Source: a virus
UHGV virus genome: UHGV-0242784
Length of the DNA stretch: 24,330 bases
Reading direction: 5' to 3' (one strand)
Shown here in pieces: positions 6,687-23,835 of this stretch; positions within the stretch are counted from its first letter, which is position 1, and the number at the start of each line of letters is the position of its first letter. The translations under genes and the position numbers were made by a program. The notes under the pieces were generated by a model. That model saw only the letters and a list, made by a program, of their open reading frames with translations. It ran no database searches and had not been told where the DNA came from.

Positions 6687-7439
6687 TTATCTCGTCACCT
6701 TTCTCAATTGTGCTTCAGCGTAAGATTCCTCCTGCCAGCACTTTGTAACCAGTTTATCAATGACATTTGCATATCCTTTATACCACTGATAATCACTCAG
6801 GTCCGGTACCAGCTTCTGGACATGATGCCGCGCCAGTGTGGTTGGTAAACGACTAAACCGTTTTCCATTGCAACGCCCACAAATCTTATAAACAGGTGTG
6901 CCATGAAGCCGGGTCCTTTTTTCATCCAGGACAATACCTTTACCCTTACACCCTCTGCACGCTGTGCTGACTTCTCCCTTACCATGGCAATGCTGACATA
7001 GTTCCTTCACCCACTCTTCTTTGATAACAGATTCCCCGCTTCTGGAGTGTTTCACCACTTCGCGCAATACATTATGAAATCCAGTACCAGCACAATGCTC
7101 ACAACGAGCCTTACTTGCCGCAGACCTGGAATAATCAGCAAAGGCAAAATTCACAAGGTAAGGAATAATCTGTAGCCGGGTTTCTTCACTCAATTTATTC
7201 AATGTCGGGTTATCCAGTGCCATCGCGTAATTGAGCAGACCTTCAATCGCAAACTGAGGATCCTGAACACCAACTTTTGCCAGGAATAAGGCAAACCCAA
7301 GCGGTGCTTTCGACTGCACCATCCCCTGCGCAGCCATCACATCCGTAATCGTTAAACCACCAGAGCCTGTCGCCGGTGCGTCATCACTCAATTTTGGAGA
7401 TTTTGGGGAGTAATATTTTGGTAAGGCTTCAAGGTTCAT
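6687..7439 (-). CDS. Late-gene antiterminator Q (phage-82/Qin QuuQ type, 250 aa)
   Basis: 250 aa with multiple CxxC zinc-binding pairs (CEHCAGTG, CQHCHGKG, CRGCKGKG, CGRCNGK); position directly upstream of the PR'-like promoter. Confidence 0.8.
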   Translation of the reverse strand: MNLEALPKYYSPKSPKLSDDAPATGSGGLTITDVMAAQGMVQSKAPLGFALFLAKVGVQDPQFAIEGLLNYAMALDNPTLNKLSEETRLQIIPYLVNFAFADYSRSAASKARCEHCAGTGFHNVLREVVKHSRSGESVIKEEWVKELCQHCHGKGEVSTACRGCKGKGIVLDEKRTRLHGTPVYKICGRCNGKRFSRLPTTLARHHVQKLVPDLSDYQWYKGYANVIDKLVTKCWQEESYAEAQLRKVTR

Positions 7440-7452
7440 GCTCGTTCTCCAC

Positions 7453-8448
7453 TTACGCCAGTACGCCTATTGCCAGCGCACGATCGATAAAACGAAATAT
7501 CAGCTCCAGCTGGGAGCCATACTTCTCTTCAAATGCCACGGTATCCGCATGCAGCTCGTCGTGATGCTTTCTGCACAAAGGCAACACAAAAAGGTCATGC
7601 GCTTTTGTACCCATTCCCCCCTGACCGTGGCCTATCAGGTGGTGGGGATCATCAGCAGGTTTTCCACAACATGCGCACGGCTGCGTCTTAACCCAGCGCG
7701 TGTACTTTTCATTAACCCAGCGGTGACGTTTTGGGCGTAACATAAAAGACTCCGGCGACTCCGGATCCACTTTCAGCGCCAGCACCTTTTTCGCCTTATC
7801 CTGGATGATGCTGGTGGCAGGAACCGAAGGCACAAGGTCACTTTCCCGGGTAACAGACGGCACAACAGGCTTCGGTAATCTCAGTGCCTTACGGGCTGCA
7901 CTTTCCGGTAAGGCATCCGCCAGATCATTACGAATCAGCCACCAGCACAGTTCCGGCATTGTCACAACATGACAGTCATCAAAACCGAGATCCCGACGCA
8001 CAACAGACAACACCCAGCGGGCACAGTTATCCGTTGCCATTGATTCCAGCCGTTCCGTGAACTGATCGCGCAGCTGGTTATCGCAGTGCCAGCACAGACG
8101 GATTGCGCCCGGAGCGTGTCGCATTGTTGTCATGTTCTCGCTGTGCCAGTCGGAATGAGGCCACTGGCAGCCTTTTTCACGAAGTAACCAGCTTTCAAGA
8201 CATTCCACGCCACCAGCACGACGGATCACTGCCTCATTGCGGAACACGGCCCGAACGGCAGGATCATCCGCCAGCGGTTGTGATGCCGCCGGAACGACAC
8301 CACTGGCGAAAGATGAATAACGTTCCGGCTCAGGCTCCAGCAGGACACGCCCCTGCATAAACAAGGGCATCAGCTCTGAACCTGGTCTGAACAATACGAT
8401 CCCCATACGCGGGGCAATTTCAGGGGTCAGTAGTGCTCTCACGGTCAC
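7453..8448 (-). CDS. DUF968/YdfU-like protein with C-terminal Cys/His cluster (possible HNH-like zinc module)
   Basis: 331 aa; C-terminal CACCGKPADDPHHLIGHGQGG...CRKHHDELH; position next to Q as in the Qin prophage (recalled). Confidence 0.65.
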   Translation of the reverse strand: MTVRALLTPEIAPRMGIVLFRPGSELMPLFMQGRVLLEPEPERYSSFASGVVPAASQPLADDPAVRAVFRNEAVIRRAGGVECLESWLLREKGCQWPHSDWHSENMTTMRHAPGAIRLCWHCDNQLRDQFTERLESMATDNCARWVLSVVRRDLGFDDCHVVTMPELCWWLIRNDLADALPESAARKALRLPKPVVPSVTRESDLVPSVPATSIIQDKAKKVLALKVDPESPESFMLRPKRHRWVNEKYTRWVKTQPCACCGKPADDPHHLIGHGQGGMGTKAHDLFVLPLCRKHHDELHADTVAFEEKYGSQLELIFRFIDRALAIGVLA

Positions 8449-9427: not shown

Positions 9428-9823
9428 TTACCGAGTTGCTAATTTGCAACTCGCTTTTTCGTACTTACTGATAGTGATCTCGACCTTCCCCTCCGGGATA
9501 ACCGGTCCCCACTCCACCAGCATTCTTTTCACCTGACTGTCGTCTTCCCACACCCCCGCGTGGGTCAGGGCGTCAAACAGCGCCTTGTTATAGTTGTCCA
9601 GATCGCGGATCCGGTTATCCGGAGGAAACAACACGATCTCCACTGAAGCAGGTGCCGACGTTGGTTTCGGCAGACGACGTAACTGCTCAACTATTGCTGC
9701 ACACGCCGCGCTCTGGAATTTTCGCCCCGCCGCGCTTATCAGGCTCTTACCAGCAAACGCCCCTTTGTTGGGGTGTCGCCAGTACGTGTTCACGCTGGGC
9801 GGAAAAGGCAGGATCAGCTTCAT
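9428..9823 (-). CDS. rusA: RusA-family Holliday-junction resolvase
   Basis: PFPPSVNTYW ... DLDNYNKALFDALTHAGVWEDDSQV: conserved RusA acidic catalytic motifs (DxDN) recognisable. Confidence 0.8.
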   Translation of the reverse strand: MKLILPFPPSVNTYWRHPNKGAFAGKSLISAAGRKFQSAACAAIVEQLRRLPKPTSAPASVEIVLFPPDNRIRDLDNYNKALFDALTHAGVWEDDSQVKRMLVEWGPVIPEGKVEITISKYEKASCKLATR

Positions 9824-10146
9824 ACTTTCAGGCCTCTCTCATGTAACCAATGGGCTGCACGCAGCCTGGCGTTTTCCTCACCGGCAAGCAGTGAGCGGAT
9901 AATCCCGACCGCCTCGCTGTCGTCGTCCTTCGCCACGGTATGAAGCGTGATCCCCCGGGCCACACCACGCTTTATCGTGATGACGCCTTTTTTCTCCAGT
10001 GCGCGAAGATGCTCCACCGCTGCATTCACTGAACGGTATCCCAGCATGGTTGCCACCTCCAGATTGGTTGGCGGGAAGCCACGTTCTTTCTGATAAGAAA
10101 TCAGCATATCCAGCACCTGCTGCTGGCATTGAGTTAACGTCGTCAT
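9820..10146 (-). CDS. LexA-type winged-helix DNA-binding domain protein lacking the S24 peptidase domain (108 aa)
   Basis: LTQCQQQVLDMLISYQKERGFPPTNLEVATMLGYRSVNAAVEHLRALEKKGVITIKRGVARGI parallels the LexA N-terminal domain; no Ser/Lys peptidase region follows. Confidence 0.55.
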   Translation of the reverse strand: MTTLTQCQQQVLDMLISYQKERGFPPTNLEVATMLGYRSVNAAVEHLRALEKKGVITIKRGVARGITLHTVAKDDDSEAVGIIRSLLAGEENARLRAAHWLHERGLKV

Positions 10147-10796
10147 GCCGCCATCTCCCTGACCAGTTTTTCCGCCTGCTGGCGAACCTGCGCCAGAAAC
10201 GCCTCACCACATGCCTCAAGTTCATCGCGCCCGATGTAGCTGATTGCCGGTCCCTTCCAGGTCTTGTCGAAAACAGCAATAGCACCAGCGAAGAAAGCGC
10301 CTGTCGGCACCTGCTTCTCATCTTTCGGGATAAACCAGGCAGGCAGTTCAAAACCAATACGCCCGCGAATAAAAGCAATATGATCTGCATCTTCCGGCCA
10401 CCACACTTCGCTGGTGGCAGCTTTGATCAGGAAAACATAGCGCCCGCCTTTATCACGCATGGCACTGGCATGTTTCATGATGTAACGCATGCCGGTGATG
10501 TATTGCCCCTCATGCTGACTGGCGCGGCTGTATGGGGGATTACCAAAGGCAGCACCTTTAAGCTCCGCAAGACGTTCTGACCAGTCATGCGCCAGCGCGT
10601 TGTCTTCCGCCGTGTAATACGCGGCACATTTGGCGTTATCACCATCGGTAAACAGATCCAGAACAAACGGGCCAAACAGGGTGTTAATCCCCCAGAAAAT
10701 GTTATCCGGCGTGCGCCACTGATCGCCCACTTCCTTCAGTTCATGGGCTGGTTTGTTCCGCAGTTCCACCAGTGCCTGACAATATTTATTACTCAT
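10143..10796 (-). CDS. Phage Dam-family N6-adenine DNA methyltransferase
   Basis: Motif GNPPYS (NPPY catalytic motif IV); start placed at Met12, which overlaps the upstream stop as TAATG; the ORF could instead start at 10829. Confidence 0.75.
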   Translation of the reverse strand: MSNKYCQALVELRNKPAHELKEVGDQWRTPDNIFWGINTLFGPFVLDLFTDGDNAKCAAYYTAEDNALAHDWSERLAELKGAAFGNPPYSRASQHEGQYITGMRYIMKHASAMRDKGGRYVFLIKAATSEVWWPEDADHIAFIRGRIGFELPAWFIPKDEKQVPTGAFFAGAIAVFDKTWKGPAISYIGRDELEACGEAFLAQVRQQAEKLVREMAA

Positions 10797-11290
10797 TAAG
10801 CCCCCACGTAATTCCCTGACAGATACCACTCTTCACCCGATGCAGCGCGCTTGCTGCTTTTCCGTAAGCACCGCTCACGACGCGCCAGAAAATTGTTTCG
10901 TTCTGGCTGGGAGTGGCTTTCACGGAATGCCGCCATCCACACGGTTGCAGCACGACGAAATAAGCCCCTGGACTCCAGTTCTTCAGCCTGGCGGGTCAGG
11001 CACAAAATCACCCGGGGATCGTTAGTGCCGACATAGAAATTGCGCACAGGTCTGGTTTCACGAACTGGTTGTGGTTCCGGCTCCTGCGCTCTCTCAGTCA
11101 GGCGCGGGAAATGTCTGCGTGTATCTCCTTCACAACGGTGAGCCACACGCCCGCTCTGACGTAACTTGCTTGCTGACTGCAGTACGCGCTGCCGTGAGTA
11201 ACCTGCAAAAGCATCCGCAATGTCTCCGGAAGTACACCCCGGATGGGCTTCAATGAATTTCTGAACGTCATTCAAAAGACTCATGCTCAC
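10796..11290 (-). CDS. Hypothetical protein (164 aa), basic C-terminal half
   Basis: ORF coupled to flanking genes by ATGA/TAATG overlaps; family not recognised. Confidence 0.55.
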   Translation of the reverse strand: MSMSLLNDVQKFIEAHPGCTSGDIADAFAGYSRQRVLQSASKLRQSGRVAHRCEGDTRRHFPRLTERAQEPEPQPVRETRPVRNFYVGTNDPRVILCLTRQAEELESRGLFRRAATVWMAAFRESHSQPERNNFLARRERCLRKSSKRAASGEEWYLSGNYVGA

Positions 11291-12228
11291 CCCCTGAATC
11301 CTGCCGGGATCTGGCTGTAGTCCACATTGTCGTAACTGGCTTTGAAGTACGGGTCTTCGCGTTTTTCTGTGTACGTGCTGATGGACGGCGATAAGCGCAG
11401 GGAAAGCTCATCCCATTTTTCCCGCAGCTTCGACGGGCTGAGCACGTTACGGCACCAGAACGGATCGCGGCTGATGCGGCTGTACATCTCGCAGATTTGT
11501 TTGTGAGTACGACCATCCTGCACACACATCAGGCGAATTTCGTTTGCCCAGGCTGTCCAGTTCGGTTCTTTGGGACGAACCACCTCGCCGTCACATTCGG
11601 CGGCCTGCTCGTACAGGGCGATGATTTTTTTCCAGAGCCACTGTGCGCAGGTCAAATCATCCTGCGTTCCCCACTGGCACTTTTTAGGGCTGAATACAAC
11701 CGCATCAGGATGGCGAGTTAAAAAATCCTGTTCAGCCGTCTGCGTGTCCGGTTGCGAAACGTCCGGACGAGAAGGTTTTTTATCTGACGGATCATATTTT
11801 GATTTTACTGACGGATCCCCGCCAGATTCTGACGGGTGAAAACCCGCTTTTTTGCCAGATTTCGACGCATCAAATTTTGACGGGTCAGATTTTGATGCGT
11901 CAGATTTTGACGGGTCAGAATCTGACAGTTGAGAAAATGCCGCGGCCTGAAGCTTCGCAACGTTAAGCTGATAAACATTCGACGCATTACGGTTACCCTG
12001 GCGACGCGCCTTACGCGTTAACCAGCCTTCTGCTTCCAGCCGTGCAATAGCCGTTCTGACGGTACTCATCCCCGCGCCAATCTGGCGGGCAATGGTTTCA
12101 ATCGATGGCCAGCACACACCTTCGTCATTACTGAAATCAGCCAGGCGGGCCATAATTGCCACACTGGATAATTTCATGCCTGACGCTGCGCAACCATCCC
12201 ATACATAGCCGGTTAATTTAGTGCTCAT
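11287..12228 (-). CDS. Replication initiation protein (N-terminal HTH; internal iteron-encoded SDPSK repeats)
   Basis: N-terminus (LSSVAIMARLADFSNDEGVCWPSIETIARQIGAGMSTVRTAIARLEAEGWL) resembles the HTH of phage/plasmid initiators; mid-protein repeat SDPSKSDASKSDPSKFDASKS is encoded by tandem DNA repeats. Confidence 0.75.
   Translation of the reverse strand: MSTKLTGYVWDGCAASGMKLSSVAIMARLADFSNDEGVCWPSIETIARQIGAGMSTVRTAIARLEAEGWLTRKARRQGNRNASNVYQLNVAKLQAAAFSQLSDSDPSKSDASKSDPSKFDASKSGKKAGFHPSESGGDPSVKSKYDPSDKKPSRPDVSQPDTQTAEQDFLTRHPDAVVFSPKKCQWGTQDDLTCAQWLWKKIIALYEQAAECDGEVVRPKEPNWTAWANEIRLMCVQDGRTHKQICEMYSRISRDPFWCRNVLSPSKLREKWDELSLRLSPSISTYTEKREDPYFKASYDNVDYSQIPAGFRG
11776..11930. repeat. Putative origin iterons: five tandem 15-bp repeats (consensus CAGATTTTGACGGGT, 11856-11930) plus related copies at 11784-11837, inside the replication gene
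   Basis: Direct reading: cagatttcgacgcat / caaattttgacgggt / cagattttgatgcgt / cagattttgacgggt / cagaatctgacagtt; arrangement analogous to ori-lambda inside gene O. Confidence 0.6.
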
Positions 12229-12237
12229 GACCGACCT

Positions 12238-12576
12238 CTATTTCCCTGAATTTACGACGAAACTGTTCGAGCGGGCTGAAGCACTCATGCTCATAGCCTT
12301 CGCGGAGGTAGATAACCCGTTGTGTTTCCGGTTCCCAACGAATGACTCTGACGGGTACTCCGTAGTGATCTTTGAACCAGCGGTTAACTTGTCGCAAAGG
12401 ACTGTCTCCTTCTGCCGGTTGAAATCACCCACAGCCCACTCAGCAAAGCTGTGGGTTACAATTTCCCTGTCACCTGGTACATTTACTGCATAGCAATACT
12501 CCACCTTCGCTTTTCCACCCGGTACAGGAAGCGCAATCAGTTGCGAGCGACGGTAGTGTGTTGTTAAACTGTTCAT
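12238..12576 (-). CDS. Hypothetical protein (112 aa)
   Basis: Start ATG overlaps the upstream stop (ATGA) and the ORF ends 10 nt before the replication gene, consistent with an operon; the overlapping plus-strand ORF 12221-12493 is rejected. Confidence 0.4.
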
Positions 12577-13244
12577 GCGTTAGTTTCTCCACAACCAGAA
12601 GCAATCGACGCCACGACGCCCGGAGCTGCACACTCGCGGGCGTCATTACTTTCTGAAACGCAAAAAATTTTGTAGACAAGTGCTGCATGCTCCTGCAGCT
12701 TCGAAATTGAGAGGTACAGCTCGTCGTTAATTGCTGTCTTCTCATGCGGTTCCACTACACCGTCTTCGATTGCCGAACGAATCTGTTTTGAATAACTGCC
12801 GATCTGTTCAATGACTTCCAGTAAACGCTGGTTAATATCGGCATTGTCCACATCCTCGACGTCAGGAAGAGACACAAAGACGCCATTTGCAGACTGCGCC
12901 ACAGCGTCAGCAATGAAGTGAGTGCCACCAGCACGTTGTAAAATCATTGCCCATCCCAGCGGGAAAATCTGATCGCCATCGGCACGAAGGCGGTTAAATA
13001 ATGCGTTCTCTGTTACATCCAGCCAGTCAGCTGCTTCAGCGTAACCACCCGGCAACGCTGCGATAGTTTTTCTGACAGCTTTCACGTACCACTCAGGCTG
13101 TTTTTCTACTTTCCAGTGATACTTACCCACGGTTAGCCTCATCGTTCTGTGGTTTCTGTTAATCGATTTATCCATTAGATTTTTCATAAAGCTCAGGTTT
13201 AAATGGCAACCGTCCGCAAGTTCTATATGCTGCTTCTGCTGCAC
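12573..13244 (-). CDS. YdaT-like protein in the cII position (start uncertain; ORF overlaps the cro-like gene by 77 nt if 13244 is used)
   Basis: ORF track; N-terminus [12 protein letters not shown] resembles my recollection of Rac YdaT; alternative starts at 13187, 13175 or 13142. Confidence 0.5.
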
Positions 13245-13368
13245 GTCCTTTTGGAATTAACTGGCCCGGACGGTTTCGCCACTGATAAACGGCCTCAGTT
13301 GTTATGCCGAAAAAAGCAGCAACTTTCTCAATACTGCCGAAGTAGCTTTCGATATCGTCAGTTGTCAT
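13168..13368 (-). CDS. Cro/YdaS-like HTH regulator (66 aa), divergent from cI
   Basis: HTH-like segment IEKVAAFFGITTEAVYQWRN; SD GGAGGG 5 nt upstream of the ATG; divergent arrangement with the repressor gene. Confidence 0.65.
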   Translation of the reverse strand: MTTDDIESYFGSIEKVAAFFGITTEAVYQWRNRPGQLIPKGRAAEAAYRTCGRLPFKPELYEKSNG

Positions 13369-13466: not shown

Positions 13467-14093
13467 ATGGAAACGGTTGGTCAGCGTATAAAAGCTCTGA
13501 GAAGGGTTACCAGAACGTCCCAGAAAGAATTGGGTAAATTTTGTGGGGTAAGTGACGTTGCTGTGGGGTACTGGGAAAAAGACATCAATGTCCCTGGCGG
13601 GGAAGCACTTTCGAAATTAGCGAAGTTCTTTAATACGTCAATAGATTACATTCTTTATGGTGCTGAGTTTGAAGGCAAACTAGTCACAAACATGCGCAGA
13701 GTTCCTGTAATTTCGTGGGTTCAGGCTGGGCAGTTTACTGAGTGCAGGGCAGCAGAAGTGTTTAGTGAAGTGGACAAGTGGGTAGATACATCTTTAAAGA
13801 TTGGTGATAACTCATTTGCATTAGAAGTTAAAGGCGACTCCATGACTAATCCTAATGGCCTCCCAACAATACCAGAAGGTGCAACAGTGATTGTAGATCC
13901 TGATGCAGAACCTCGTCATGGAAAAATAGTCATTGCTCGACTTGATGGAACGAACGAAGCTACAGTAAAAAAATTAGTCATCGATGGTCCTCAAAAGTTT
14001 TTAGTGCCATTAAATCCACGGTATCCCAACATCCCAATCAATGGTAATTGCCTGATCATTGGTGTAGTCAAAGGAGTTCAATACGAACTCTAG
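13467..14093 (+). CDS. cI: CI-type prophage repressor (HTH-XRE N-domain + S24 LexA-like autopeptidase C-domain)
   Basis: N-terminal HTH (QKELGKFCGVSDVAVGYWE), linker, C-terminal S24 domain with GDSM serine motif (EVKGDSMTNP) and a downstream Lys (KKLV); divergent from the cro-like gene. Confidence 0.9.
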   Translation: METVGQRIKALRRVTRTSQKELGKFCGVSDVAVGYWEKDINVPGGEALSKLAKFFNTSIDYILYGAEFEGKLVTNMRRVPVISWVQAGQFTECRAAEVFSEVDKWVDTSLKIGDNSFALEVKGDSMTNPNGLPTIPEGATVIVDPDAEPRHGKIVIARLDGTNEATVKKLVIDGPQKFLVPLNPRYPNIPINGNCLIIGVVKGVQYEL

Positions 14094-18601: not shown

Positions 18602-21600
18602 TCACACGCTGCGCCTTCGAGAATATTCATTTAATCGCTGATAACGAACATCTTGCTCCAGTTGTGGAGCAGCTTGAACAATTTGAAGCAAGCATTGCCC
18701 CAACTCTCGAGGCCCCCAGTGTTGTTCGGCAATCACGGCATTCAGCAGGGATAGAGCGTCCGCAGGATATCGGCTGCAAATATCTGATTCTAGCAAAAGG
18801 CGAACGTCGTAGCTAAGGTGTTCGAGCGGTTGCAGCCAGTCCTGCACCACTGCCAAAGCCGCCGGAAATTCACCTCGGGCAGCAATCACCATACGAGTCA
18901 ACGATTCGGATATGCGTGGGGTGGCCAAGTTGCGGGACTTTGGCCAAACCTGTTGCCAAAATGGCTGGACACGATTTTTCCAATACTCCTCGCGCTGATC
19001 GCCCGCACCTTCAAGTGCCTGGTATAACGCCTGCGCGGCTACCTCCAGACCTTCTTGTGGAAGAGCACTAATTGCCGTTCGGAACTCCTCCACGGTATAT
19101 CCCTCGGTAGGGCCCAGAGCTGCATAAGTCAGGAAAGTAGCGAATTGCTGCCGGTGCTCGCCAAGATCAGAATAGTGATTGGCGCTCTCCAAAAAATCTG
19201 ACTTGAAAGCTATCAGCAACGGTTCATACAGGCGTGGCGACCAGAGGAAGCCTTCCCACACAGCTTTTGCTTCGACGGGATTACTCCAAGCAAACAAGGG
19301 CAATAGATACTGTTCGGTCCAAGGTCGATCTACGCGAAAAAATGCGATCAGCCGCGACCCCAGCAACACCCGACCATGGCGGAATAGCTCTATCTGTACA
19401 TTACACAATTTGGTGAAAAGTGTTTTCAATTCAACAGGAAGCAAATCATTGTCATTCGGGTTCTGTTTGAACCATAGGGTGATCAGTGATTGCGTGACAT
19501 GCCCAATGGGATGATTGATCGCCGTAGAAACAGGATCATAGGTCTCAATTCCGTTTCGAATGGTGCTAGACTCTGGGCTTGTTTCTATCATCAGAACCCG
19601 ACGACAAAGGGCCAGTAGAATCTCCTCGTGGCAGAGGATGGTCTTCGAAGCCTCCTCCATCCACCAAGTGACAGCGTGGGAAATCTCCTGAAGTACTGCG
19701 TCAGGCATGTCAAGCACCAACGGTGCGGCGTACCGCCACGAACGCAAAATCATCCCTGGTTCAGCCCAAGTCTGCAGAGCTTCACGCCACCGACCAACAG
19801 GCCACACATCATCTTGTGATAGTTTACTTAACGCATACAGACTGTGAAAAAAGCGCGTACGGCAAACATCACTCCAAGTGTCCTCATAGAAAGGCAGTCT
19901 TTCTGGCATAGGCTTTGCGAGCCATTGCACTAATTCCTGCCACTTACGGGGCGCAATGTCGACATCTATATTCTCCTCGAAGCCTGGATCACCGGTTCCG
20001 CTCATCCAGTGAGAGAATTCATCACGCTCGTTGGTTGCCAGTTGCCATTTTGGGTATGCTGTGGATATTTCCGTCAAACGTGTAGCCGCAGACTCTCCCA
20101 AAACAAGGCCCGCTCCCCTGAGCTTCGCTAGACACAACCAGACGGAATGAGCCACCAAATAATGCCACCTGTCTGCTTCCAAATTATCCTCGTACATCTC
20201 GCGCGGAGGCCCTGCCAAGATAGCAGTTTCCAGACGCTCTTGTGCAATTCCTGTCAGATGTCGTCCCTGCAAAACAAACAGTCTGAATACCTCTCGCCCA
20301 GTATCCGTGGCCCACAACCACCATGAACCGTCCTCTAACAACCAATTAACCCACCGCTCAGGTGGTATGCAGTTGTCTTGGCTTGCGGCAAACAGTGCCA
20401 GACGTTTGAAGGTGGGATATGGCAACTCAAACCAATTCTGAGCAATGCGCGTGGCCTGATCGCTGTCTTTGGCTCGAACGGCTAACCATGAATCCCGAAG
20501 TAATTCAATCAGGCTCACCCAATCGCGGAACCCCCGGTTCTGCCAGTGCGGAGTGATGGACGGCAAATCCCAATGCGAGCGGTCGTGACGATCGTCGGAC
20601 TCTCCCAACTCCCGCAACAAGTCCAGTGCATCACGCAACAACTGCTGAAAATCTTCCAACAGGTATGGCAAGGACGATTTCCATGACTCGTCAGCAAGGT
20701 CGAACAGGGTTGAACGTACGTAATCAGCAGTCAGCACCAGCTCCCAATCCACCAATTGCTTGATTCGCAAGGGTTCATCAGTGCTGCTCGAATCGTCTTC
20801 ACTATAGCGAAACGGCCGCCTCAACATAACCTTGGGAGAAAGCAACTCGCGTAACTCCAAGCGCAATGTAGTCGTCAAGCCTTCATTCTTTAAGCGGTTT
20901 TGCCAACGATACAAATCCAGGTTCTGCAATGGCGATTTCACACGACCACTAAGCAGAAGCCGCCATAAAGTAGACATAGGTGGACCAGGAATAGCCAGGG
21001 GGGAATGCAAGAGAATTTCATCTAACTCAAAAGTCTTACGCTCCCGCATCAGTGCTGCTAAGCGATCTAGTTCGCTCTCAATCAGAAACATCCAACGGTC
21101 GTGTATTTGTCCGCCGCGTTCAGCAATCCATATGATCAACCTAGGGTCGCCCAGATAACGAACTAGCCAACGGGCTATATGGGACATTACGTCATCCCAT
21201 TTGCTAGCACTGACACATCCAGAAACCAGCGACATCTGCAGGGCCAGCTCATAGGGCGCAGGACGCTGAACCAGACTGAATCGGAGTTTCGGGTCAATTT
21301 CGACATGCGGAGATACACAAAAGCGTGGCAGATCGCTGTATTTAAATCGTTCGTCCGAGAAAGCTTTCAATAACCAATCCAGCGGCGGTGCAGGATTGAG
21401 TTCCGCAAAGCGTTTTGCTGGTAAACCTGATTTATCTGACAAGGCCCACAACATCCGACCAACGAAATCGTCCTGACGAGTGCTGTCCTGCGGGCGGGCC
21501 AGAGCATGTTTGACGACTATAGCCTCTTTGCCCTGTATACCATCTCGATAAGTATCTGCCCAAGCGTGCAACGTTTGATGCAGCACTGAATGATCAGTGG

Positions 21601-22429
21601 AGCCCGCCGGTACGGTGTAAAGGATAGGAGTGACCCCTTTGGCCTCCCACTCGATGGCTTTCCGGTGCTCCTGCCCCGGCTCACACTCCCCCAGTGCCCA
21701 TACTTGTGGTGTGACTTCACCGAGCCTCCGATCTGCTGCAAGCGCATCCATCATGTAGCGCAGTACCGGGTCGTTGATGCTGTAGCCAACGAAGCAGACC
21801 ACATAGTTACGAAATAACTCACTCACAAAGCGAGCTGCCCAACGCTCAGTGAGATAAGCCAAGCCAAAGTCACCGCTGGTAACAACCAGACGATTCAGGG
21901 CAGTATCATCCGCCTTTTCCGGTAACAGCCCATGCAGGTATACAAGTCCATCCCAGCGGCTGTTTTTTGGAATTGGCAGCATCGGCGCTACATAGGCCTG
22001 AAAAGCCTGGCCTGTACGTTTAGCTGCCACATGAAAGAGACGGTCAAAGTTGGTAGTGACCAATCGAAGGGCACCCTCGCGGCTACGGGCTAAACGTAAC
22101 AGCGCCGCCTGAGTATCAATAGCGCCCCTACGACGGAGCTTTGGCTTAAGGGCTTTTTCCAACGCGCGTCGGACGGCTATACGCTGCCCTGGTAAGCGCC
22201 GTTCCAGCAAATCTAATGTGCCGTCAAATTGCCCACGCTCGAAAACCTCACGCTCAATTTCTGAAAGTGTTGTTCCGTTCCTCTGGTAAATTAGTTCTAC
22301 CAACCCTTTGAAACCAGGTAAACCAGCAGGGTAGGAAATGCCTGCTCCACAGAAGAACACAACGCGCCCTTCCTCGTGCGCCTGCAAAAGCTCATCAGGA
22401 ATATCAGGGCCGTTGGTAATGAATTGCAT
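18602..22429 (-). CDS. Large SIR2-domain protein (1275 aa): N-terminal defence-type SIR2 NADase-like domain + ~1000-aa helical C-terminal region (DSR-like candidate)
   Basis: Uninterrupted 3.8-kb ORF with SD AGGAGG 7 nt upstream; SIR2 motifs in the first ~250 aa: VVFFCGAGIS, VTTNFDRLFH, VYLHGLL, VCFVGYSINDPVL; no Walker A (GxxxxGK[ST]) found by eye. Confidence 0.85.
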   Translation of the reverse strand: MQFITNGPDIPDELLQAHEEGRVVFFCGAGISYPAGLPGFKGLVELIYQRNGTTLSEIEREVFERGQFDGTLDLLERRLPGQRIAVRRALEKALKPKLRRRGAIDTQAALLRLARSREGALRLVTTNFDRLFHVAAKRTGQAFQAYVAPMLPIPKNSRWDGLVYLHGLLPEKADDTALNRLVVTSGDFGLAYLTERWAARFVSELFRNYVVCFVGYSINDPVLRYMMDALAADRRLGEVTPQVWALGECEPGQEHRKAIEWEAKGVTPILYTVPAGSTDHSVLHQTLHAWADTYRDGIQGKEAIVVKHALARPQDSTRQDDFVGRMLWALSDKSGLPAKRFAELNPAPPLDWLLKAFSDERFKYSDLPRFCVSPHVEIDPKLRFSLVQRPAPYELALQMSLVSGCVSASKWDDVMSHIARWLVRYLGDPRLIIWIAERGGQIHDRWMFLIESELDRLAALMRERKTFELDEILLHSPLAIPGPPMSTLWRLLLSGRVKSPLQNLDLYRWQNRLKNEGLTTTLRLELRELLSPKVMLRRPFRYSEDDSSSTDEPLRIKQLVDWELVLTADYVRSTLFDLADESWKSSLPYLLEDFQQLLRDALDLLRELGESDDRHDRSHWDLPSITPHWQNRGFRDWVSLIELLRDSWLAVRAKDSDQATRIAQNWFELPYPTFKRLALFAASQDNCIPPERWVNWLLEDGSWWLWATDTGREVFRLFVLQGRHLTGIAQERLETAILAGPPREMYEDNLEADRWHYLVAHSVWLCLAKLRGAGLVLGESAATRLTEISTAYPKWQLATNERDEFSHWMSGTGDPGFEENIDVDIAPRKWQELVQWLAKPMPERLPFYEDTWSDVCRTRFFHSLYALSKLSQDDVWPVGRWREALQTWAEPGMILRSWRYAAPLVLDMPDAVLQEISHAVTWWMEEASKTILCHEEILLALCRRVLMIETSPESSTIRNGIETYDPVSTAINHPIGHVTQSLITLWFKQNPNDNDLLPVELKTLFTKLCNVQIELFRHGRVLLGSRLIAFFRVDRPWTEQYLLPLFAWSNPVEAKAVWEGFLWSPRLYEPLLIAFKSDFLESANHYSDLGEHRQQFATFLTYAALGPTEGYTVEEFRTAISALPQEGLEVAAQALYQALEGAGDQREEYWKNRVQPFWQQVWPKSRNLATPRISESLTRMVIAARGEFPAALAVVQDWLQPLEHLSYDVRLLLESDICSRYPADALSLLNAVIAEQHWGPRELGQCLLQIVQAAPQLEQDVRYQRLNEYSRRRSV

Positions 22430-22611: not shown

Positions 22612-23835
22612 TCATTTCGAGCCTGAACGAGTACAAGTAACAATCGATTCAACTCTCTCCCACCATGCCTGGTAGGCTTTACGCTGTTCTTCTAGATAAT
22701 CACTCTTGTCATAAACTTGCCATACACCTGGCAGTTTATGACCGAGCATTATTTCAGCAATATGAGGCGCAGTAAGATCAGAAAAGTTTGTTCGTGCTGT
22801 TCGTCTCAAATCATGAAGAGACCAATGAGGAAATTGATACCCCAAACGCCGCCATGCGTACTGCATTAAATTGTAAGGTAGCGACTGCAATGATGTCCGA
22901 CCAACTGGTTCCCTGCTTCCTTCCTTAGTAAAAAGCATATCGGAACCGTTGTTCATAGAGATAACGTATTTTATAAGCTCTTCAACCGGTTCAATAATGG
23001 GCCGCTTTAGCGGTTCGCCTGTTATATCCCCTGTCTTATGTCGTTCTGGTGGTACAGTCCATATTTTATTAATGAAATCAAAATCGTCCACCTTGGCAGT
23101 AATTAGCTCTGAACTACGGCAACCAAAATGCAGCAATAGTTTAATGAAGGCCCGGTATTTAGGAACCATTCGAGAACCATCGATCGCAGCATAAAGGATT
23201 TTAATTTCATCATGTGTCAGAAACCGTTTCTTCTGACCTTTACGGATATCCATATCTTTACCCGTGATATCCGACAGCGGGCGAGTTTCAATGAGCTTTC
23301 TCTTATACGCCCAGACATGGGCCTGCTTTGCGTTAATTAGCAATCGGTCTGCTATTGCTGGAGTCTTAGTGCTAAGAGGCTCCAGGACTTCTAACCAATC
23401 ATGCAATGTAGCTGCATCGTGAGGGATATTCCCGATTTTAGAGAACAGGTGCAGCTCAAACGAGCGGAGTATCTGTTCAGAACCTTTTTTATTTTTTACA
23501 CAATATGCTTCATACCAAGCACGGATCACAGATTCTACCGTCATGGCTTCAGTAGCTTTACGTTTTTCTGCCAGCTTGACCAATCGTGGATTGCGGTTTG
23601 ACTCGAGTTCACCACGAAGACGGATAACTTCTTCTCTGGCCTCTTTTAGTCCAGTTGCCGGGTAAGTTCCGATATCAAGACGCTCACCTTTCCCCGCCCA
23701 CTGATAACGATATTGGAACACTACGCGACCTTTCGGTGATACTCTAACAGACAGACCATCACGATCGGATTTAACCAAAACCTTATCACGTTCCTTTCCA
23801 ACAACTGAACGCAACCACGCATCAGACAGCGCCAT
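22612..23835 (-). CDS. int: Tyrosine recombinase / integrase (P4-type, 407 aa)
   Basis: Catalytic residues in the expected order (R ... HDLRRT ... Y near the C-terminus); N-terminal arm-binding-like region; located at the prophage end next to the host junction. Confidence 0.9.
   Translation of the reverse strand: MALSDAWLRSVVGKERDKVLVKSDRDGLSVRVSPKGRVVFQYRYQWAGKGERLDIGTYPATGLKEAREEVIRLRGELESNRNPRLVKLAEKRKATEAMTVESVIRAWYEAYCVKNKKGSEQILRSFELHLFSKIGNIPHDAATLHDWLEVLEPLSTKTPAIADRLLINAKQAHVWAYKRKLIETRPLSDITGKDMDIRKGQKKRFLTHDEIKILYAAIDGSRMVPKYRAFIKLLLHFGCRSSELITAKVDDFDFINKIWTVPPERHKTGDITGEPLKRPIIEPVEELIKYVISMNNGSDMLFTKEGSREPVGRTSLQSLPYNLMQYAWRRLGYQFPHWSLHDLRRTARTNFSDLTAPHIAEIMLGHKLPGVWQVYDKSDYLEEQRKAYQAWWERVESIVTCTRSGSK

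What the first reader, a model, noticed from the sequence alone, without database searches (positions are those of the whole stretch)
11287..12228. Replication initiator with the origin iterons in its own coding sequence and no recognisable helicase-loader gene
Five tandem 15-bp repeats plus related copies are translated in frame as a Ser/Asp/Pro/Lys repetitive linker (SDPSKSDASKSDPSK...). This indicates an ori-within-gene arrangement like lambda O. The downstream genes are a 164-aa unknown, a Dam-type methyltransferase and a LexA-DBD protein, not a lambda-P or DnaC-like loader. The mechanism of helicase recruitment is therefore unclear, and the 164-aa protein is a candidate unconventional loader.
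Basis: partly seen in the sequence, partly recalled or inferred. Interest (0 to 1): 0.45.

Follow-up and report, generated by a model that had tools for sequence, protein, structure and literature searches.

The report
Loader-less lambda-type phage replication initiator
This very common E. coli/Shigella prophage replication gene carries its own origin repeats inside its coding sequence, has no helicase-loader gene beside it, and ends in a copy of the tail of the host restart protein DnaT, which probably lets it borrow the host's loader.

Summary
ORF 11287-12228 (minus strand, 313 aa) is the replication initiator of an SfII/SfIV-like lambdoid prophage. Its inter-domain linker holds 4.3 tandem 15-bp units plus three dispersed copies of a 10-bp palindromic box. 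These are seven in-frame boxes at 11785-11917, conserved more at the DNA level than at the protein level.

The lambda-O analogy holds. The C-terminal domain is homologous to that of lambda O (39% identity, E 6e-25). [quoted passage not shown]

No lambda-P, DnaC or DnaB homologue exists in the window, or in the complete SfII and HannyBb phage genomes.

The 164-aa neighbour is YfdN, a winged-helix plus PerC-family regulator. It shows no loader similarity and is absent from some relatives, so I do not support it as a loader.

The new lead is the initiator's C-terminus, ...YSQIPAGFRG-COOH, which matches the conserved C-terminus of E. coli DnaT (...SQIPPGFRG-COOH). Across at least 12 initiator lineages this tail never occurs with lambda-P. 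It sometimes occurs with a facultative phage dnaC-like gene. Seven lineages with the same C-terminal domain but other tails all have P.

The most likely mechanism is a DnaT-like tail that recruits host DnaB-DnaC. This is inferred, not shown.

The parts
11287..12228 (-). Replication initiator gene (313 aa plus stop), the lambda-O-type initiator of an SfII/SfIV-like prophage
   Evidence: ORF list. PHROG 391 'replication initiation O-like', E 5e-134. 97-98% nucleotide identity to SfII, PhiR49_1 and others, where it is annotated as replication protein O or primosomal protein.
11944..12228 (-). N-terminal winged-helix DNA-binding domain (aa 1-95), presumed to bind the iterons
   Evidence: Pfam HTH_36, E 4e-11, with weaker DnaD_N and RP-C hits. 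It is not Phage_rep_O.
11785..11917 (.). Iteron cluster of seven 10-bp palindromic boxes (consensus TGAYSSNTCA on the coding strand) at 11908-11917, 11893-11902, 11878-11887, 11863-11872, 11830-11839, 11809-11818 and 11785-11794. It is read in frame as the D-[P/A]-S repeats of the linker.
   Evidence: for the boxes. DNA-level conservation and codon bias. Copy-number variants.
11776..11807 (.). The most AT-rich stretch of the gene (77% AT over 30 bp), lying between and after boxes 6 and 7. It is the candidate unwinding region.
   Evidence: with the composition profile. It is modest compared with lambda, so the assignment is inferred.
11392..11733 (-). C-terminal helical domain (aa 166-279), homologous to the lambda O C-terminal domain and distantly to DnaD-like replisome organizers
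   Evidence: BLASTP against lambda O gives 39% identity over 112 aa, E 6e-25. tblastn also reaches DnaD-like proteins of Bacillus phages. The AlphaFold model has mean pLDDT 86 (chain including the tail) and is helical. The search of cluster representatives found 2597 proteins.
11290..11391 (-). C-terminal tail (aa 280-313), predicted to be mostly disordered. The last 9 residues, SQIPAGFRG (11290-11316), match the C-terminus of E. coli DnaT at 8 of 9 positions.
   Evidence: pLDDT is below 65 from about aa 285 of the protein. The tail is shared at 79-100% identity with the otherwise unrelated SfV/mEp460-type initiators.
10796..11290 (-). yfdN-like gene, coding a winged-helix plus PerC-family protein. 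It is 164 aa from the GTG start, or more likely 162 aa from the ATG at 11284. Its start overlaps the initiator's stop codon. It is not a loader homologue.
12218..12397 (-). DUF4222 gene immediately upstream of the initiator, overlapping its start. It is syntenic in both the P-containing and the P-less relatives.
   Evidence: Pfam E 8.6e-19. RefSeq annotation. Synteny in L297, L298 and L301.
10143..10829 (-). Phage Dam (N6-adenine) methyltransferase of the same early operon. Two iteron boxes contain GATC.
   Evidence: Pfam Dam, E 1e-45. GATC in boxes 6 and 7.

Best explanation
This is the replication module of a lambdoid (SfII/SfIV-type) prophage. It consists of an origin-binding initiator with no phage helicase loader.

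Proposed steps:
1. Dimers of the N-terminal winged-helix domain bind the seven palindromic boxes that lie inside the initiator's own coding sequence (11785-11917).
2. The adjacent AT-rich stretch opens.
3. The C-terminal lambda-O-type domain, with its flexible DnaT-like tail (...YSQIPAGFRG-COOH), brings in the host DnaB-DnaC complex. This replaces the phage P protein that lambda O recruits through its own, different tail.

The 164-aa downstream protein (YfdN) is a PerC-family regulator in the 'ren/nin' slot. It is not the loader.

What is shown: the repeats and their DNA-level constraint; the homology to the lambda O C-terminal domain; the absence of any P, DnaC or DnaB homologue; the identity of the tail with the DnaT C-terminus; and the strict association of tail type with loader type across lineages.

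What is inferred: that the repeats act as an origin, that the tail is a recruitment peptide, and what its target is (DnaC, DnaB or their complex).
For: Origin inside the gene:
- The repeats are clustered, palindromic and in frame.
- They are more conserved as DNA than as protein, and show a TCA codon bias.
- Lambda's iterons are recovered in the equivalent position of O by the same tool.
- Three other initiator types each have their own repeats in the linker.

Homology: the C-terminal domain matches that of lambda O.

No loader:
- Six-frame phmmer of the window finds no DnaC, DnaB or P at E <= 10.
- SfII is an isolated phage shown to infect. SfII and HannyBb have none in their complete genomes.

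The tail:
- 8 of 9 residues are identical to the DnaT C-terminus, and both lie at the extreme C-terminus.
- HannyBb's O-like protein ends in an even closer copy of the DnaT tail.
- The IPxGFRG ending, at or within two residues of the C-terminus, is kept in about 115 of the 120 listed DnaT-search hits.
- All 120 matches to a back-translated tail pattern in viral contigs are protein C-termini followed by a stop codon.
- The tail sits on at least three unrelated C-terminal domains, and only the tail aligns in profile-profile comparison.

Association with loader type:
- Among tail-bearing initiators, 0 have P. About 25 of the 120 have a dnaC-like gene 7 nt downstream (48-50% identical to host DnaC). 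The rest have none.
- Initiators that are 100% identical occur both with and without the dnaC-like gene.
- Of six diverse tail-bearing representatives, five have no loader and one has an IstB/DnaC-like gene.
- Seven lineages with the same C-terminal domain but xTDWxxGL or WNxxEAWENxx tails all have PF06992 lambda-P directly downstream. 79 of 79 lambda-P loci have the lambda-type tail.
- The closest case is P0249/L301. It has the same N-terminal domain, the same iteron boxes and a closely similar C-terminal domain (about 77% aa identity), but a lambda-type tail followed by P and then Dam.

In E. coli, dnaT is followed directly by dnaC.
Against: - No experiment links these repeats to origin activity.
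- The AT-rich element is weak: 77% AT over 30 bp.
- The function of the DnaT tail is unknown. Residues 154-179 are absent from the structures 4OU7 and 9ZBT/9ZBU, and the most recent model proposes the DnaT N-terminal domain, not the tail, as the DnaB/DnaC recruiter.
- The association with dnaC-like genes is by genomic context only. The lineages compared are not fully independent, and many loci are prophages of unknown viability.
- The YSQIPAGFRG sub-type carried by this window is never next to a dnaC-like gene. It is almost always next to yfdN.
Confidence: 0.55

Rival explanations
1. The tail connects the initiator to the PriA restart primosome rather than to DnaC/DnaB directly. By copying the DnaT C-terminus, the origin-bound initiator would dock PriA and/or PriB, or replace DnaT in a PriA-PriB complex, at the opened origin. 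DnaB would then be loaded by the restart pathway.
For: - The tail is the DnaT tail.
- DnaT works inside the PriA-PriB-DnaT preprimosome, and its C-terminal domain contacts PriA.
- The partner of residues 154-179 is unknown.
Against: - The genomic association is with dnaC-like genes, in both phages and the host operon. No priA- or priB-like gene was noted beside these initiators, though none was searched for.
- The PriA contact seen by cryo-EM was modelled with DnaT 84-153 alone.
- Removing 154-179 roughly doubles the apparent Kd for ssDNA and lowers cooperativity.
Confidence: 0.15
2. One reading: the 164-aa YfdN protein is an unconventional adaptor or loader that links the initiator to DnaB.
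For: - It sits where P sits in the closest P-containing relative: initiator-P-Dam in L301 against initiator-YfdN-Dam here.
- Its start overlaps the initiator's stop codon.
- The last 33 codons of the initiator and yfdN travel together as one block between two unrelated initiator types.
- PerC/ANR-type domains are small helical modules, and I recall (from memory, not tested here) that they can act through protein-protein contacts. The ANR hit itself is below threshold.
Against: - It is a PerC-family protein with a winged helix, and shows no similarity to P or DnaC. DciA was not tested by sequence and did not appear in the PDB fold search.
- It is absent after the same initiator in L092 and L101, and after the SfV-type initiator in L122.
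- Other tail-bearing initiators without a loader are followed by unrelated genes: DUF977, DUF1627 or unknowns.
- Where a dnaC-like gene is present, those same genes simply come after it. The slot therefore corresponds to lambda ren/nin, not to P.
Confidence: 0.1
3. The repeats are only a low-complexity flexible linker with no cis-acting role, and the origin lies elsewhere (or this prophage copy does not replicate).
For: - The peptide SDPSK/SDASK looks like a disordered linker.
- The AT-rich element is weak.
- No functional data exist.
Against: - The 10-bp boxes are palindromic. They are kept in three dispersed copies with different flanking residues.
- Codon choice is biased toward the box sequence.
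- Nucleotide identity exceeds amino-acid identity only in this segment.
- Lambda O and the three other initiator types examined (SfV/mEp460, HannyBb and L010 types) each carry their own repeat set at the same position.
Confidence: 0.05

Closest known systems
Bacteriophage lambda O protein and ori-lambda (with P)
   Same: - The C-terminal domain is homologous (39% identity, E 6e-25).
- The origin repeats lie inside the initiator gene, in the linker between the DNA-binding and C-terminal domains.
- The gene sits after cro/cII in the early rightward operon.
   Different: - The N-terminal domain is HTH_36, not Phage_rep_O.
- The boxes are 10-bp palindromes at 15-bp spacing plus dispersed copies. 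Lambda has four ~18-20-bp iterons at 20-24 bp spacing.
- The AT-rich element is weak.
- The tail is DnaT-like instead of ...NTDWIYGVDL.
- There is no P gene.
E. coli primosomal protein DnaT (dnaT-dnaC operon)
   Same: The extreme C-terminus SQIPxGFRG-COOH matches at 8 of 9 positions, and the motif is conserved in DnaT orthologues. Some tail-bearing phage initiators are followed directly by a dnaC-like gene, as dnaT is by dnaC.
   Different: There is no DnaT C-terminal domain (PF17948) and no DnaT N-terminal domain. Only the tail aligns. This protein is a sequence-specific origin binder, not a restart factor.
Prophage initiators followed by a dnaC-like loader gene (for example L040, L289; the Rac ydaU-ydaV type as I recall it from memory)
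   Same: The tail is the same IPxGFRG type. Many share the lambda-O-type C-terminal domain, and all sit in lambdoid early operons.
   Different: They carry their own DnaC paralogue (48-50% identical to host DnaC). That gene is facultative even for 100%-identical initiators. The window has none.
SfV / mEp460 / Stx2c-phage 'replication protein' (about 272 aa)
   Same: The last roughly 24 residues are identical (REDPYFKASYDNVDYSQIPAGFRG). The downstream yfdN-dam-lexA-DBD-rusA block is the same, and there is no loader.
   Different: The linker repeats and the C-terminal domain are unrelated to the window's. That C-terminal domain aligns with the DnaT C-terminal domain (hhalign probability 96.5) rather than with lambda O.
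DopC-DopE of Cellvibrionales/Oceanospirillales (Brezellec et al. 2017, PMC5509034)
   Same: It has an HTH_36 N-terminus combined with a DnaT-derived C-terminus in a protein of lambda-O ancestry.
   Different: DopC has the DnaT C-terminal domain, is chromosomal, lacks iterons and is paired with a P-like protein. Here only the tail is DnaT-like, iterons are present and P is absent.
PerC/Pch family regulators (relevant to the 164-aa protein)
   Same: PF06069 scores above its gathering threshold, and NCBI names the protein a PerC family transcriptional regulator, yfdN.
   Different: It has an extra N-terminal winged helix. Its target is unknown. Its position and translational coupling to the initiator are not explained.

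Membership tests
Lambda-O-type initiator with the origin inside the gene | C-terminal domain homologous to the lambda O C-terminal domain | tested here: met
   BLASTP gives 39% identity over 112 aa, E 6e-25. phmmer lambda O against the window gives E 1e-23.
Lambda-O-type initiator with the origin inside the gene | N-terminal Phage_rep_O (PF04492) DNA-binding domain | tested here: not met
   Pfam gives HTH_36 and no PF04492. Lambda O and Pm34 gp15 do hit PF04492.
Lambda-O-type initiator with the origin inside the gene | Repeated initiator-binding sites inside its own gene, between the two domains | tested here: met
   Seven boxes at 11785-11917 in the linker. DNA-level constraint. Binding itself was not tested.
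Lambda-O-type initiator with the origin inside the gene | AT-rich unwinding region adjacent to the iterons | tested here: inconclusive
   The best 30-bp window is 77% AT, at 11776-11807. No long AT tract is present.
Lambda-O-type initiator with the origin inside the gene | Partner P gene (PF06992) immediately downstream | tested here: not met
   The downstream gene is PerC-family. No P homologue in six frames.
Lambda-O-type initiator with the origin inside the gene | Supports origin-dependent replication | not testable with these tools
   This needs an origin-plasmid assay.
DnaT (primosomal protein i) | DnaT ssDNA-binding C-terminal domain (PF17948) | tested here: not met
   No PF17948 hit. 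hhalign aligns only the last 16 columns.
DnaT (primosomal protein i) | Conserved C-terminal ...IPxGFRG-COOH tail | tested here: met
   8 of 9 residues identical at the extreme C-terminus. The motif is conserved in DnaT orthologues.
Helicase loaders (lambda P, DnaC/IstB AAA+; DciA by fold search only), applied to the 164-aa protein | Sequence or fold similarity to a known loader | tested here: not met
   No loader family in Pfam, PHROG or NCBIfam. BLASTP against lambda P finds nothing. PDB Foldseek returns only winged-helix regulators, with E > 1e-3.
PerC family (PF06069), applied to the 164-aa protein | Pfam PerC domain above the gathering threshold | tested here: met
   34.5 bits against a cut-off of 22.6, residues 100-151. 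RefSeq names it 'yfdN: PerC family transcriptional regulator'.
PerC family (PF06069), applied to the 164-aa protein | Acts as a transcriptional activator | not testable with these tools
   No functional data were found for YfdN.

The most novel reading that the evidence does not exclude
The C-terminal peptide ...IPxGFRG-COOH is a portable helicase-recruitment tail. It would be the still-unidentified element through which DnaT hands the DnaB-DnaC complex to the restart primosome. Lambdoid phages would have swapped it, cassette-like, with the P-binding tail of lambda-O-type initiators. That swap would let them dispense with a loader gene and use host, or facultative phage, DnaC.
Probability: 0.35. 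Interest if true: 0.75.

Novelty: new variant of a known kind. Interest (0 to 1): 0.45.

Why it matters
In itself the module is ordinary and extremely common. It is present at 80% length or more in 1576 of 5426 complete E. coli genomes, and also in SfII and SfIV. RefSeq labels it only 'helix-turn-helix domain-containing protein'. Recognising it as the origin and initiator improves prophage annotation.

The wider interest is the tail. How the PriA-PriB-DnaT preprimosome recruits DnaB-DnaC is stated to be unknown in the 2026 cryo-EM paper, and the conserved DnaT tail is missing from every structure. The natural tail-for-loader swaps seen here point to one short peptide. It can be tested directly by pull-down, by AlphaFold-Multimer, by tail deletion in dnaT and by origin-plasmid assays.

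The result also suggests a simple rule for reading which loader a lambdoid initiator uses from its last ~10-15 residues.

Tried and rejected
- Profile-profile comparison of the lambda-O-type C-terminal domain with the DnaT C-terminal domain aligns only the tail. I therefore dropped the idea that the whole domain is DnaT-like.
- A profile search of PDB sequences with the C-terminal domain found nothing significant.
- Foldseek with the YfdN model returned only winged-helix regulators.
- The search for related loci with a diverse C-terminal domain alignment returned only near-identical loci, so it was useless for the association test. I used the look-up of encoding contigs on cluster representatives instead.
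- Literature: no paper in the library mentions PPGFRG or IPPGFRG or 'initiator-solo'. The SfII and SfIV genome papers only name a 'replication module'.
- Weigel & Seitz 2006 (FEMS Microbiol Rev), which I recall as describing 'initiator-solo' modules, is not held. That statement rests on memory.
- The 112-aa upstream ORF has no Pfam or NCBIfam family, matches only a PHROG family of unknown function, and overlaps a better-supported DUF4222 gene. I did not pursue it as a loader.
Full report
**What the window is.** The region is the early-right operon of a lambdoid prophage of the SfII/SfIV/SfV group. 2 kb around the finding is 97-98% identical to Shigella phage SfII, Escherichia phages PhiR49_1, Kati and others.

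On the minus strand the gene order is as follows:
- cro (13168-13368)
- CP76-type cII (12573-13244)
- DUF4222 (12218-12397)
- initiator (11287-12228)
- YfdN-like protein (10796-11290)
- Dam (10143-10829)
- LexA-DBD protein (9820-10146)
- RusA (9428-9823)
- KilA-N protein, a DUF968/HNH protein and Q

cI is divergent, at 13467-14093. The initiator gene is present at 80% length or more in 1576 of 5426 complete E. coli genomes, where RefSeq calls it only 'helix-turn-helix domain-containing protein'.

**The observation.** The 313-aa ORF contains the stated repeats. Tandem Repeats Finder gives 11856-11919, period 15, 4.3 copies, so there are four full units rather than five. The conserved core is a 10-bp palindromic box. 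Seven copies with at most 1 mismatch lie in 11785-11917, against six in the remaining 24 kb, and 0 of 100 shuffles reach the observed count. All seven are in one reading frame and encode D/H-[P/A]-S, with spacings of 15, 15, 15, 33, 21 and 24 bp.

Three results argue that the DNA itself, and not only the peptide, is constrained:
- The Ser codon in the boxes is TCA in 6 of 7 cases, against 3 of 29 elsewhere in the gene (p = 2.8e-4).
- Against the homologue in L301, the linker is 83.6% identical in DNA but 76.4% in protein. The two flanking domains show the normal opposite pattern.
- The residues between boxes change (K to N, D or E) while the boxes stay.

Natural alleles of 308, 313 and 318 aa differ by exactly one 15-bp unit. 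The same repeat tool recovers the four annotated ori-lambda iterons inside lambda O. It also finds a different repeat family in the linker of each of three other initiator types: HannyBb with 5 x 23 bp, the SfV/mEp460 type, and the L010 type. The most AT-rich 30 bp of the gene (77% AT) lies at 11776-11807, next to boxes 6 and 7. This is a weak unwinding element compared with lambda.

**What the initiator is.**
- Residues 1-95 are an HTH_36 winged helix with weak DnaD_N and RP-C hits. They are not the Phage_rep_O domain of lambda O.
- Residues 166-279 are homologous to the lambda O C-terminal domain (39% identity, E 6e-25). This domain is widespread: the search of cluster representatives found 2597 proteins. 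It reaches DnaD-like replisome organizers of Bacillus phages by tblastn. Its AlphaFold model is a confident helical domain with no strong PDB neighbour.
- The last roughly 30 residues are predicted to be mostly disordered.

**Is there a loader?** No. Six-frame phmmer of the window with E. coli DnaC, DnaB and lambda P finds nothing at E <= 10. Pfam finds none in any other ORF of the window. The complete genomes of SfII (an isolated, infective phage) and of HannyBb also contain no homologue.

**The 164-aa protein.** It is YfdN.
- It scores 34.5 bits against PerC (PF06069; cut-off 22.6) and matches PHROG 1324 'transcriptional activator' at E 5e-79. NCBI names it a PerC family transcriptional regulator.
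- The family is narrow, limited to prophages of Enterobacteriaceae.
- The model has a winged helix (residues 1-60), a disordered linker and a three-helix domain (residues 90-148). Foldseek against the PDB returns only ArsR, MarR and BlaI-type winged helices, none significant, and no loader.
- BLASTP against lambda P finds nothing.
- It is missing after the same initiator in L092 and L101, and after the SfV-type initiator in L122, where Dam follows directly.

Other initiators without a loader are followed by unrelated genes such as DUF977, DUF1627 or unknowns. Where a dnaC-like gene is present, those same genes simply follow it. YfdN therefore occupies the variable 'ren/nin' slot rather than the P slot.

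Two facts still favour a link to the initiator. Its start overlaps the initiator's stop codon. It also travels as one recombination block with the last 33 codons of the initiator between two unrelated initiator types. I keep the loader idea as a 0.1 rival.

**The DnaT-like tail.** The initiator ends ...VDYSQIPAGFRG-COOH, and E. coli DnaT ends ...SEPDSQIPPGFRG-COOH. The O-like protein of phage HannyBb ends ...VNHISEPDTEIPPGFRG, against ...VNTVSEPDSQIPPGFRG in DnaT. In about 115 of the 120 listed hits of the DnaT search the ending is [EQ]PDx[QH]IPxGFRG, with the x position free; a few carry two extra residues (GFRGAK).

All 120 are true protein C-termini. They sit on several architectures: the window type, the HannyBb type, the SfV type, a 358-aa type, and proteins with a genuine DnaT C-terminal domain.

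Profile-profile comparison shows that the window's C-terminal domain and DnaT share only the tail (16 columns). The SfV-type C-terminal domain aligns with the DnaT C-terminal domain more broadly. The tail is thus a short module that has been moved between different domains.

**Tail type predicts loader type.** Among the 120 tail-bearing loci, none has lambda-P.
- About 25 have a dnaC-like gene 7 nt downstream, 48-50% identical to host DnaC.
- About 40 have DUF977 directly downstream.
- About 50 have yfdN.

Initiators that are 100% identical over 325 aa occur both with and without the dnaC-like gene. The phage dnaC is therefore facultative, which implies that the host DnaC suffices.

Of six diverse tail-bearing cluster representatives (sharing less than 50% identity), five have no loader and one has an IstB/DnaC-like gene. 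Conversely, seven lineages have the same C-terminal domain but tails of the type ...xTDWxxGL or ...WNxxEAWENxx. These are lambda, Pm34, P0266, P0285, P0294, P0255 and P0249, and all have PF06992 lambda-P directly downstream, overlapping the initiator's stop in the five where it could be read. 79 of 79 lambda-P loci have ...NTDWIYGVDL.

Two natural swaps are especially close:
- P0255 (L298) is 45% identical to the window protein through residue 279. It then diverges to a WNSAEAWENTL tail with P downstream.
- P0249 (L301) has the same N-terminal domain, the same iteron boxes and a closely similar C-terminal domain (about 77% aa identity), but a ...DFDNTDWIYGI... tail followed by P and then Dam.

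In the host, dnaT is followed directly by dnaC.

**Mechanism proposed.**
- Shown: an initiator with the origin inside its gene and a lambda-O-type C-terminal domain; no phage loader; a DnaT-type tail that is mutually exclusive with P and linked to DnaC-type loaders.
- Inferred: winged-helix dimers bind the boxes and the adjacent AT-rich DNA opens. The flexible tail then recruits host DnaB-DnaC, as the lambda-type tail region is inferred to recruit P-DnaB.

The main uncertainty is the tail's target. DnaT residues 154-179 are absent from all structures (4OU7, 9ZBT, 9ZBU). Deleting them roughly doubles the apparent Kd for ssDNA and lowers cooperativity. The 2026 preprimosome paper says DnaB/DnaC recruitment is still unknown and favours the DnaT N-terminal domain. 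A PriA/PriB-directed role of the tail is therefore a serious rival.

**Comparison with what is known.** The module works like lambda O with the origin in the gene, but it fails two lambda-O membership features: the Phage_rep_O domain and the partner P. It is not a DnaT, since only the tail matches. Modules without a loader ('initiator-solo') were, as I recall, described by Weigel & Seitz 2006. That paper is not held, and the term is absent from the library. Brezellec et al. 2017 described DopC, which combines HTH_36 with a DnaT C-terminal domain and is paired with a P-like protein. Some annotation pipelines already label these proteins 'primosomal protein (I)'. I found no paper that mentions the tail motif.

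**Verdict.** The finding is a real but common prophage replication module, a variant of the lambda-O kind. The DnaT-tail lead is what raises the interest above routine, and it remains an inference from comparative genomics.

Noticed in passing
window 18602-22429 (minus strand): The 1275-aa protein is a full-length DSR1 defence-associated sirtuin (PADLOC PDLC02183, E = 0; Pfam SIR2_2). It lies between the integrase (22612-23835) and the early-left genes, a typical anti-phage cargo position in a prophage.
   Followed up: partly
window 12218-12576 (minus strand): Two overlapping ORFs lie in different frames here. One is a 59-aa DUF4222 gene (12218-12397; Pfam E 8.6e-19), annotated by RefSeq and syntenic upstream of the initiator in distant relatives. 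The other is the 112-aa ORF (12238-12576) that the SfII record annotates. The 112-aa call is doubtful, at least in its 3' half.
   Followed up: partly
window 11785-11818, with 10143-10829: Iteron boxes 6 and 7 contain GATC, and the same operon encodes a Dam methyltransferase. Methylation could modulate initiator binding.
   Followed up: no
window 11290-11391 plus 10796-11290; loci L003, L007, L008: The last 33 codons of the initiator and yfdN move together as one mosaic block between two unrelated initiator types (the window type and the SfV/mEp460/Stx2c-phage type). The recombination joint lies at the boundary between the C-terminal domain and the tail.
   Followed up: partly
cluster representatives P0249, P0266, P0285, P0290, P0294 and others; lambda O: Lambda-O-type initiators that have a P gene share their own conserved C-terminal motifs (...D[WF]xNTDWxxGL or ...WNxxEAWENxx). 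These tails are candidates for the P-contact peptide.
   Followed up: partly
L069, L089, L105, L014, L056, L082: Some prophage proteins combine a different N-terminal domain with a genuine DnaT C-terminal domain and tail. They look like the phage relatives of the host dnaT gene. In L056 a dnaC-like gene follows immediately.
   Followed up: partly
window 6687-7439 and 7453-8448 (minus strand): The antiterminator Q homologue also carries a sub-threshold match to the DnaJ-type CXXCXGXG zinc-finger domain (31.2 bits; cut-off 32.7), and a DUF968/HNH-like protein lies next to it.
   Followed up: no
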